Of a DNA stretch of 7,527 nucleotides, positions 7,234 to 7,527 are shown piece after piece (within the stretch, counting starts at the first letter, position 1; every line of letters starts with the position of its first letter). The stretch lies in the IMG/VR virus record IMGVR_UViG_2609460218_000012. One strand, written 5' to 3'. Below the pieces are notes generated by a model, which was not told where the DNA came from, did no database searches, and saw only the letters and a program-made list of their open reading frames with translations. The position numbers and the translations under genes are program-made. Origin of the DNA: a virus. Its lineage: Duplodnaviria; Heunggongvirae; Uroviricota; Caudoviricetes.

Positions 7234-7259
7234 ATCTAAATATTCTTTCAATTATAACC

Positions 7260-7527
7260 TGACCTGCCCCCACGATTAGATACAACACTCAGTTAGTAAC
7301 GTCGGAATCTTCATTCTCAGAATGACCCTTTCTCCAGCCCGCTGCAAATTCAGACGGTGTCTGATAATTCAGCGTGGAGTGCGGGCGGCATTCGTTATAA
7401 TCCTGCCGCCAGTCATTAATAATTTTCCTGGCATGAACGATATCGCTGAACCAGTGCTCATTCAAACATTCATCGCGAAATCGTCCGTTAAAGCTCTCAA
7501 TAAATCCGTTCTGCGTTGGCTTGCCCG
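7260..7527 (-). mobile_element. IS3-family insertion sequence, IS2-like, partial: right end (IRR) and OrfB 3' end; body continues beyond window end
   Basis: Encodes the C-terminus of an IS3-family OrfB on the minus strand. Outside-in terminal sequence TGACCTGCCCCCACGA (from 7260) is an imperfect inverted match to the IS2 IRL TAGACTGGCCCCCTGA. Same orientation as the IS2 fragment at 1..166. Exact terminus uncertain by 1 to 2 bp. Confidence 0.8.
7289..7527 (-). CDS. insD: IS3-family transposase OrfB (IS2 InsD-like), C-terminal fragment; continues off the window edge
   Basis: Minus-strand translation [78 protein letters not shown] then stop (TGA at 7291..7289). The [20 protein letters not shown] block is characteristic of the IS3-family OrfB C-terminus. 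Assignment to IS2 specifically is from recollection. Confidence 0.8.

What the first reader, a model, noticed from the sequence alone, without database searches (positions are those of the whole stretch)
7234..7290. IS right end lies only about 27 bp upstream of the trkG start codon
The IS terminus (about 7260) leaves almost no native upstream sequence for trkG. A TATAAT hexamer lies immediately outside the IS end (minus strand ..caggtca|ggTTATAATtgaaagaatatttagatATG), 17 nt before the ATG. IS2 is known to alter expression of adjacent genes, and IS3-family right ends can carry outward-facing -35 elements. So trkG may be driven by read-through or a hybrid promoter. I could not find a convincing -35 at 16 to 18 bp spacing, so this is speculative.
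Basis: inference. Interest (0 to 1): 0.4.

Follow-up and report, generated by a model that had tools for sequence, protein, structure and literature searches.

The report
ISSen4-type IS inserted just upstream of trkG
A common mobile element (an ISSen4-type insertion sequence, not IS2) has landed 26 bases in front of the prophage potassium-transporter gene trkG; the promoter-like TATAAT beside it is ordinary native DNA, so this looks like a routine strain-specific insertion, not a new control element.

Summary
Window 7260-7527 is the right end of a 1,221-bp IS3-family element. It is 268/268 identical to copies that RefSeq labels ISSen4 family, and it is not IS2. Its terminal base (7260) lies 26 bp upstream of the annotated trkG ATG (7233, minus strand), and it points the same way as trkG.

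However, it is native trkG leader DNA, present in about 1,545 complete E. coli genomes that lack the IS. The hexamer occurs in the window at chance frequency (7 found, 5.2 expected). It also overlaps a TTG start codon at -18 that published ribosome profiling proposes for trkG.

No -35 lies in the IS end at usable spacing (best 2/6), and the consensus promoter scan finds nothing at the junction. The hybrid-promoter idea therefore has no sequence support.

Read-through from the IS is structurally possible: the orientation matches, and there is no intrinsic terminator in the IS or in the 55 nt before the ATG. The insertion moves 111 of the 137 bp of native Rz-trkG spacer 1.2 kb away from trkG.

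The junction was found in none of the public collections searched. This is an ordinary IS insertion polymorphism in a decaying Rac-like prophage, and its effect on trkG is untested.

The parts
7260..7527 (-). Right end of an ISSen4-family (IS3 family) insertion sequence. It runs off the window end, so only the last 268 bp of a 1,221-bp element are present.
   Evidence: 268/268 identical to the last 268 bp of the ISSen4-family copy in E. coli MB56. RefSeq annotation reads 'IS3-like element ISSen4 family transposase'. BLAST breakpoint at 7259|7260.
7260..7288 (-). Non-coding tail of the IS, 29 nt from the orfB stop to the IS tip. The terminal inverted repeat IRR begins at the tip: TGACCTGCCCCC... 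on the + strand, ...GGGGGCAGGTCA on the minus strand.
   Evidence: Ungapped IRL/IRR comparison in complete copies: 11 of the first 12 bases match. The TG...CA termini are seen directly.
7289..7525 (-). 3' end of the transposase orfB (78 codons plus the stop at 7291-7289), reading toward trkG.
   Evidence: Pfam rve_3 E=2.9e-28 and rve_2 E=6.6e-07. Translation [22 protein letters not shown]...DSDVTN*.
7256..7259 (.). Predicted copy of the 4-bp target-site duplication (AACC on +, GGTT on -). The second copy would lie beyond the window.
   Evidence: Inference. Complete copies of this IS carry 4-bp duplications, TAAC and CCAC. Not verifiable here because only one IS end is in the window.
7234..7259 (-). 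The 26 bp of native trkG upstream DNA that remain next to the gene.
   Evidence: Identical to IS-less E. coli (L002 11064-11089). Beyond that point the native sequence continues ACCTTGCTGCAATATT... instead of the IS.
7251..7256 (-). TATAAT hexamer. It is native, occurs at chance frequency, and has no partner -35.
   Evidence: 7 found vs 5.24 expected; best -35 is 2/6 at the junction, 3/6 in native context; 0 promoter-like sites.
7249..7251 (-). In-frame TTG, 18 nt upstream of the annotated ATG. This is the alternative trkG start proposed by tetracycline ribosome profiling in K-12, and it lies only 8 nt from the IS end.
   Evidence: ORF 7006..7251 starts with TTG. PMC4909307 supplement lists 'trkG TTG -18', protein MKEYLDMNTSHV...; the lacZ test was inconclusive. 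Anti-SD pairing upstream of the TTG is -8.2 kcal/mol (native) and -8.7 (junction), against -2.7 upstream of the ATG.
5773..7233 (-). trkG (Trk potassium transporter of a Rac-like prophage), annotated ATG at 7233-7231. The gene is intact apart from N characters at 6019, 7024-7025, 7081 and 7104.
   Evidence: 99.9% identical to the E. coli strain 1943 trkG region. The only real difference is a synonymous SNP at 6691; the codon reading TTG vs CTG is my own.

Best explanation
A 1,221-bp ISSen4-family element (IS3 family) transposed into the 137-bp spacer between the Rz lysis gene and trkG in a Rac-like defective prophage. Its right terminal base now abuts position -26 from the annotated trkG ATG, or -8 from the ribosome-profiling TTG start. 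It has the same orientation as trkG.

The TATAAT next to the IS end is pre-existing trkG leader DNA. The insertion creates no recognisable hybrid promoter.

What the insertion does do is push 111 bp of the native spacer 1.2 kb away from the gene. That spacer carries 11 further -10-like hexamers, including the best-scoring native promoter candidate, and presumably the H-NS/SlyA-responsive region.

Any trkG expression in this strain would therefore have to come from transcripts that start in or upstream of the IS and read out through its right end. These would be the weak transposase mRNA, or native and phage transcripts crossing the IS. An AGGT Shine-Dalgarno-like sequence is fortuitously re-formed at the junction, so such transcripts could still be translated.

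The most likely net effect is neutral or reduced trkG expression. Shown: the anatomy, the native origin of the TATAAT, the lack of a -35 and the lack of terminators. Inferred: the direction and size of the expression effect.
For: - IS identity and exact terminus.
- Ancestral arrangement: 1,545 of 5,426 complete E. coli genomes carry the trkG 5' end plus these 26 bp, 1,524 of 1,549 records at >=99% identity. 1,521 carry the uninterrupted Rz-trkG spacer. K-12 is identical (H67).
- No promoter-like site in 6900-7527. The -35 at the junction is 2/6. No sigma-70-like circle-junction promoter. TATAAT at chance frequency.
- The native spacer holds TTTAAA-18-TATGAT, 9/12, and 11 other -10-like hexamers, all displaced.
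- Promoter activity was reported for the 509-bp fragment upstream of the ATG (PMC9898762; primers located). A sigma-70 holoenzyme SELEX peak is assigned to a trkG promoter (PMC5811629).
- No terminator-like site in the IS or at the junction, and the transposase is co-oriented with trkG.
- Anti-SD complementarity is retained at the junction and accessibility of the translation start region is similar in both contexts.
- The same prophage carries an IS2 inside its DUF4055 gene at window 167, which fits neutral decay by IS accumulation.
Against: - No transcript data exist for this strain, and the native trkG transcription start site was not found in the literature available to me. I therefore cannot exclude that the TATAAT at -17 is itself used as a -35-independent promoter, both natively and here.
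- IS407-group IS3 elements in Paracoccus have outward promoters in their 3' ends (PMC3281130). An unconventional outward promoter in ISSen4 is not excluded by consensus scans.
- Removing upstream AT-rich DNA could relieve H-NS repression rather than lower expression.
- Only one IS end is in the window, so a simple insertion (as opposed to an insertion plus an adjacent deletion or rearrangement) is not proven.
Confidence: 0.75

Rival explanations
1. Hybrid promoter: an outward-facing -35 in the IS right end combines with the resident TATAAT to make a new sigma-70 promoter that drives trkG.
For: A perfect TATAAT lies 3 nt outside the IS end. G at -14 gives a partial extended -10 (GGTTATAAT). IS3-family elements, including IS407-group members, can activate neighbouring genes (PMC3281130).
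Against: - The best -35 at 15-19 nt spacing is 2/6 (TAATCG), and the scan finds 0 promoter-like sites.
- The modelled circle junction shows no promoter, so there is no evidence that this IRR carries a -35.
- The same TATAAT exists without the IS in about 1,545 genomes.
- A start 7 nt downstream would give a 10-11 nt leader without a Shine-Dalgarno sequence and would exclude the TTG(-18) start.
- In the Paracoccus study, the IS407-group elements used complete outward promoters, not hybrids.
Confidence: 0.07
2. De-silencing or activation: the insertion separates trkG from upstream H-NS nucleation sites and places it under constitutive read-out transcription from the IS. This raises trkG expression and was selected for.
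For: trkG is partly repressed by H-NS and StpA (PMC9898762) and counter-silenced by SlyA (PMC5797941). The IS is co-oriented, with no terminator-like site. A Shine-Dalgarno-like AGGT is retained.
Against: - trkG itself is AT-rich, so H-NS can still nucleate within the gene.
- IS3-family transposase promoters are weak, and most of orfB is poorly translated, which makes read-through vulnerable to Rho (general knowledge of the family, not tested here).
- The junction is absent from 5,426 complete E. coli genomes, GTDB representatives, JGI metagenomes, plasmids and phages. There is no sign of recurrence or spread that would suggest selection.
- The prophage also carries an IS2 in a structural gene, which fits neutral decay.
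Confidence: 0.13
3. Assembly artefact: the junction is a chimeric join at a contig end where the assembler ran into a repeated IS, not a real insertion next to trkG.
For: The window looks like a whole draft contig, with IS fragments at both ends (IS2 at 1-166, ISSen4-type at 7260-7527) and seven N characters. No other genome shares the junction.
Against: The join falls exactly at the terminal base of the IS (TG...CA tip), base for base where complete copies end. This is what real transposition produces, and a random chimera would be very unlikely to do so. Contigs ending a few hundred bases inside a repeat are the normal signature of a genuine repeat-flanked locus.
Confidence: 0.05

Closest known systems
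ISSen4 (IS3 family; IS407 group as I recall from ISfinder)
   Same: The 268 bp present are 100% identical to the right end of RefSeq-annotated ISSen4-family copies. They share the TGACCTGC... termini and the rve_3 integrase C-terminus. Reference copies are 1,221 bp with 4-bp target duplications.
   Different: Nothing differs in the part that can be seen. Only the insertion site is new. The rest of the element and the second junction lie outside the window.
IS-mediated gene activation by hybrid or outward promoters (IS3, IS2, IS1, IS5 and IS256 cases; IS407-group outward promoters in Paracoccus, PMC3281130)
   Same: An IS end lies immediately upstream of a gene, is co-oriented with it, and has a -10-like hexamer just outside the IS.
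   Different: There is no -35 in the IS end at usable spacing and no consensus outward promoter in the last ~140 nt of the IS. The -10-like hexamer is ancestral and overlaps a candidate start codon. No expression data exist.
Native trkG locus of the Rac prophage in E. coli K-12 (H-NS-repressed, with its own sigma-70 promoter region)
   Same: The gene and the 26 bp upstream are essentially identical. K-12 matches the IS-less reference spacer at 100% (H67).
   Different: Here 111 of the 137 bp of the Rz-trkG spacer are displaced by the IS. The AGGTG Shine-Dalgarno sequence for the TTG(-18) start is split and replaced by IS-derived ...CAGGTCA followed by GGTT.
IS2
   Same: Same family (IS3). A real IS2 end is present in the window at 1-166.
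   Different: The element next to trkG is not IS2. Its ends and transposase match ISSen4-family copies, and its sequence is unlike the IS2 copy in L003.

Membership tests
IS3-family insertion sequence, ISSen4 type | Terminal inverted repeat with 5'-TG...CA-3' tips that matches the named element | tested here: met
   TGACCTGCCCCCACGATTAG... at 7260 onward. It is identical to the IRR of two complete copies in L001.
IS3-family insertion sequence, ISSen4 type | DDE (rve) transposase reading toward the right end | tested here: met
   Pfam rve_3 E=2.9e-28 on 7292-7525(-), with the stop at 7291-7289, 29 nt before the IS tip.
IS3-family insertion sequence, ISSen4 type | High nucleotide identity to the reference element | tested here: met
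   268/268 identity to the RefSeq-annotated 'IS3-like element ISSen4 family' copy in strain MB56. I had no direct comparison with the ISfinder reference sequence.
IS3-family insertion sequence, ISSen4 type | Two overlapping ORFs with a programmed -1 frameshift, in a complete ~1.2-kb element | not testable with these tools
   Only 268 bp lie in the window. Reference copies are annotated with a programmed frameshift and measure 1,221 bp.
IS3-family insertion sequence, ISSen4 type | Short (3-4 bp) direct target duplication flanking the element | not testable with these tools
   The second junction is outside the window. Reference copies have 4-bp duplications, TAAC and CCAC. The predicted duplication here is AACC (7256-7259).
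IS-generated hybrid promoter | -10 hexamer in flanking DNA close to the IS end | tested here: met
   TATAAT at 7256-7251(-), 3 nt from the IS tip. It is ancestral and occurs at chance frequency.
IS-generated hybrid promoter | -35 hexamer inside the IS end at 16-18 nt spacing from that -10 | tested here: not met
   Best match is 2/6 (TAATCG at 16 nt). There are 0 promoter-like sites in 6900-7527 and no promoter in the modelled circle junction.
IS-generated hybrid promoter | Transcript start mapped just downstream, with IS-dependent expression of the neighbouring gene | not testable with these tools
   This needs 5' RACE or RNA-seq and a reporter fusion in the source strain.
Read-out (read-through) transcription from an IS into the adjacent gene | Transposase gene co-oriented with the downstream gene and no terminator in between | tested here: met
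   Both are on the minus strand. There are 55 nt between the orfB stop and the ATG. No terminator-like site appears in 6900-7527 or in the full-length IS. Rho-dependent termination cannot be assessed.
IS2 | Sequence identity to IS2 ends and transposase | tested here: not met
   7260-7527 matches ISSen4-family copies only. IS2 is the element at 1-166.

The most novel reading that the evidence does not exclude
The ISSen4-type insertion acts as a mobile expression signal. Constitutive read-out transcription from the IS, or an unconventional -35-independent promoter that uses the TATAAT, would work together with the Shine-Dalgarno-like AGGT re-formed at the IS tip. This would free the horizontally acquired K+/Na+ transporter TrkG from H-NS/SlyA control, as an adaptive regulatory rewiring in this strain.
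Probability: 0.1. Interest if true: 0.35.

Novelty: new member of a known kind. Interest (0 to 1): 0.15.

Why it matters
It matters little beyond strain-level annotation.

If the insertion did change trkG expression, it would be one more example of IS-driven rewiring of an H-NS-silenced prophage gene, which is a well-known phenomenon.

The more useful by-products are corrections. The IS is ISSen4 family, not IS2. The trkG "frameshifts" in this contig are artefacts of N characters. The real trkG start may be the TTG at -18, which has a good Shine-Dalgarno sequence that the annotated ATG lacks. If so, the IS lies only 8 nt from the start codon.

Tried and rejected
- **Same junction elsewhere.** I searched 5,426 complete E. 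coli genomes, GTDB representative genomes, JGI metagenome contigs, PLSDB plasmids and INPHARED phages. No record holds it, so the other side of the insertion could not be examined.
- **IS match reaching 7249-7251.** The first BLAST suggested the IS match extended that far. Reading the flanks showed a chance gapped similarity of AT-rich flanking DNA, so I rejected it. The true tip is 7260.
- **Mapped trkG transcription start.** I found none. The 1991 trkG paper (PMC207911) and the Thomason dRNA-seq paper (PMC4288677) are not held. Other hits only mention trkG in passing.
- **Outward -35 in the IRR.** I modelled the IRR-spacer-IRL circle junction and found no match of at least 8/12.
- **Blocked translation start.** I checked whether the IS end sequesters the trkG translation start region in a read-through mRNA. 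There was no notable difference from the native context.
- **Not run.** I did not use protein homology or structure searches, because the question concerns non-coding DNA.

Full report
**What is in the window**

The window has three parts.
- Bases 1-166 are the orfA-side end of IS2. They are identical to an IS2 copy in E. coli 2017.02.04CC.
- Bases 167-7259 are the late region of a Rac-like lambdoid prophage. They align end to end, at 99.9% identity, with E. coli strain 1943.
- Bases 7260-7527 are the right end of a different IS.

The prophage part differs from strain 1943 only at seven N characters and one SNP at 6691. Four of the Ns are spurious 1-base insertions. By my own reading of the codon, the SNP is synonymous (TTG vs CTG, Leu). 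trkG (5773-7233, minus strand) is therefore intact, and its apparent frameshifts are artefacts of the Ns.

**Checking the observation**

On the minus strand the junction reads ...CTAATCGTGGGGGCAGGTCA|GGTTATAATTGAAAGAATATTTAGATATG.

The 268 bases at 7260-7527 are identical at every position to the last 268 bases of a 1,221-bp element in E. coli MB56. RefSeq annotates that element as "IS3-like element ISSen4 family transposase", with a programmed frameshift.

Two complete copies in that genome define the ends as TGACCTGC...GCAGGTCA. Each has a 4-bp target duplication, TAAC or CCAC. The IS tip in the window is therefore base 7260.

BLAST against phage records breaks exactly at 7259|7260: the trkG part ends at 7259 and the IS part starts at 7260, both at 100% identity.

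The stretch 7292-7525(-) translates to the C-terminus of a DDE integrase (Pfam rve_3, E=2.9e-28). The right end of the IS therefore faces trkG, and the transposase is transcribed in the same direction as trkG.

The native DNA left between the IS tip and the annotated ATG is 26 bp. TATAAT lies at 7256-7251, 17 nt before the ATG. The one error is that the element is not IS2.

**Insertion or ancestral arrangement?**

It is an insertion.
- 1,545 of 5,426 complete E. coli genomes carry the trkG 5' end with the same 26 bp upstream. Of the 1,549 matching records, 1,524 are at least 99% identical.
- 1,521 genomes carry the uninterrupted 137-bp spacer between the Rz lysis gene and trkG. K-12 is among them, at 100% identity.
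- In those genomes the sequence after ...AATTATAACC continues ACCTTGCTGCAATATTATGATTATACTG....

No record in the following collections holds the IS-trkG junction:
- complete E. coli genomes;
- GTDB representative genomes;
- JGI metagenome contigs;
- PLSDB plasmids;
- INPHARED phages.

It is a rare, probably strain-specific event. The join falls exactly on the terminal base of the IS, which argues for real transposition and against an assembly chimera.

**Is there a hybrid promoter?**

The TATAAT is ancestral DNA. The hexamer occurs 7 times in the window against 5.24 +/- 2.51 expected, and 62 of 200 shuffles reach 7 or more.

At 15-19 nt upstream of it, the IS end offers at best 2/6 matches to TTGACA. 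In the native context the same hexamer has at best 3/6.

The consensus scan finds no promoter-like site on either strand of 6900-7527, where shuffles give 1.8 +/- 1.1.

IS3-family elements are known for a -35 in IRR that pairs with a -10 in IRL when the ends are abutted in a circle. I modelled that junction for this IS with several spacers and found no match of at least 8/12. Nothing suggests an outward -35 in this particular IRR.

IS407-group IS3 elements in Paracoccus do drive downstream genes from outward promoters in their 3' terminal parts (PMC3281130). That is a precedent for the class only. The last ~140 nt of this IS contain only weak -10-like hexamers, with -35 matches of 2-3/6.

Tetracycline-inhibited ribosome profiling in K-12 called a new trkG start: a TTG 18 nt upstream of the annotated ATG, giving MKEYLDMNTSHV... 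(PMC4909307 supplement). The confirmatory lacZ fusions were inconclusive.

In the window that TTG is at 7251-7249. It is in frame (ORF 7006..7251), and it shares its first T with the TATAAT.

The native sequence upstream of it, GCAGCAAGGTGGTTATAATTG, pairs well with the 16S rRNA 3' end (-8.2 kcal/mol). The region upstream of the ATG has essentially no such pairing (-2.7 kcal/mol).

If the TTG is the real start, two things follow:
- The IS tip is only 8 nt from the start codon.
- The TATAAT cannot be the -10 of the mRNA that encodes that protein.

The predicted 4-bp duplication (GGTT on the minus strand) splits the native Shine-Dalgarno sequence. Even so, the IS tip plus the duplication...GGGGGCAGGTCAGGTT, keeps comparable anti-SD pairing (-8.7 kcal/mol). 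Predicted accessibility of the start region is similar in both contexts. Transcripts that read out of the IS could therefore still be translated.

**What the insertion most likely does**

The insertion removes 111 of the 137 bp of native spacer from the neighbourhood of trkG. That spacer holds the best consensus candidate, TTTAAA-18-TATGAT at 9/12, and 11 other -10-like hexamers.

Published work on K-12 shows the following:
- The 509 bp upstream of the ATG have promoter activity (PMC9898762; primers located).
- A sigma-70 holoenzyme SELEX peak is assigned to a trkG promoter in Rac (PMC5811629).
- trkG is partly repressed by H-NS and StpA.
- trkG rises 3.8-fold on SlyA overexpression (PMC5797941).

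I found no mapped transcription start.

With the IS in place, transcription of trkG would have to start in or upstream of the IS and read out through IRR. This is structurally possible. The orientation matches, only 55 nt separate the orfB stop from the ATG, and neither the junction nor the full-length IS contains a terminator-like site.

From general knowledge of the IS3 family, the transposase promoter is weak and orfB is poorly translated. I would expect Rho to limit such read-through. This is inference and was not tested here.

The same prophage also has an IS2 inside its DUF4055 gene (window 167), which fits a decaying element that is accumulating IS copies. My best estimate is a neutral or expression-lowering insertion. 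An activating effect through read-out transcription or loss of H-NS control remains possible but has no support.

**Comparison with what is known, and verdict**

This is a new insertion site of a known IS in a known prophage locus. IS insertions that displace or replace promoters are textbook material.

The defining feature of a hybrid promoter, a -35 in the IS end at the right spacing, was tested and not met. The conditions for read-through are met, but only structurally.

Interest is low (0.15). The most novel reading still open is IS-driven release of trkG from xenogeneic silencing. I give it a probability of about 0.1, and it would be of only moderate interest if true.

Noticed in passing
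window 1-166: The orfA-side end of IS2 is inserted inside the prophage DUF4055-domain gene, about 225 bp from that gene's 3' end by comparison with L002 (3776-5182). The window therefore looks like a whole draft contig bounded by two different IS elements, and the prophage is probably defective.
   Followed up: partly
window 7249-7251 (minus strand): An in-frame TTG lies 18 nt upstream of the annotated trkG ATG and has a good Shine-Dalgarno sequence (AGGTG) in the native context. It matches the 'trkG TTG -18' start called by ribosome profiling in K-12 (PMC4909307). RefSeq still annotates the ATG, which has almost no Shine-Dalgarno pairing (-2.7 kcal/mol).
   Followed up: partly
window 1193, 3470, 6019, 7024-7025, 7081, 7104: There are seven N characters. 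Those at 1193, 6019, 7081 and 7104 are extra bases relative to the reference. They create false frameshifts in trkG (6019, 7081, 7104) and in one upstream phage gene (1193).
   Followed up: yes
window 6691: This is the only true substitution relative to E. coli strain 1943 across 7.1 kb (A vs G on the + strand). By my own reading of the codon it is synonymous (TTG vs CTG, Leu, trkG codon 181).
   Followed up: yes
window 7234-7270 vs L002 11064-11100: The native target just upstream of the insertion point (GCAGCAAGGT on the minus strand) loosely resembles the IS tip (GGGCAGGTCA). This could be chance, or it could reflect the tendency of some IS3-family elements to insert next to sequences like their own ends.
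   Followed up: no
phage records PQ520124.1 (Enterococcus phage IME_EF3) and PV340539.1 (Escherichia phage mEp234): Both records contain a stretch 100% identical to the 91 IS-end bases included in the query (window 7260-7350). In an Enterococcus phage record this looks like contamination or a mislabelled record.
   Followed up: no
L001 (E. coli MB56, NZ_CP073936.1 2540754-2544258): Two identical ISSen4-family copies in inverted orientation flank a single hypothetical gene (WP_014639476.1) inside a Rac-like prophage. Each copy has its own 4-bp target duplication, so these are two independent insertions and not a mobilised composite transposon.
   Followed up: partly
vs 33 (E. coli complete genomes): About 24 genomes carry the trkG 5' end but not the full Rz-trkG spacer, and 15 trkG matches are on plasmids. 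At least one genome (NZ_CM128549.1) has trkG broken at about 48 nt into the coding sequence. I did not examine these other arrangements.
   Followed up: no
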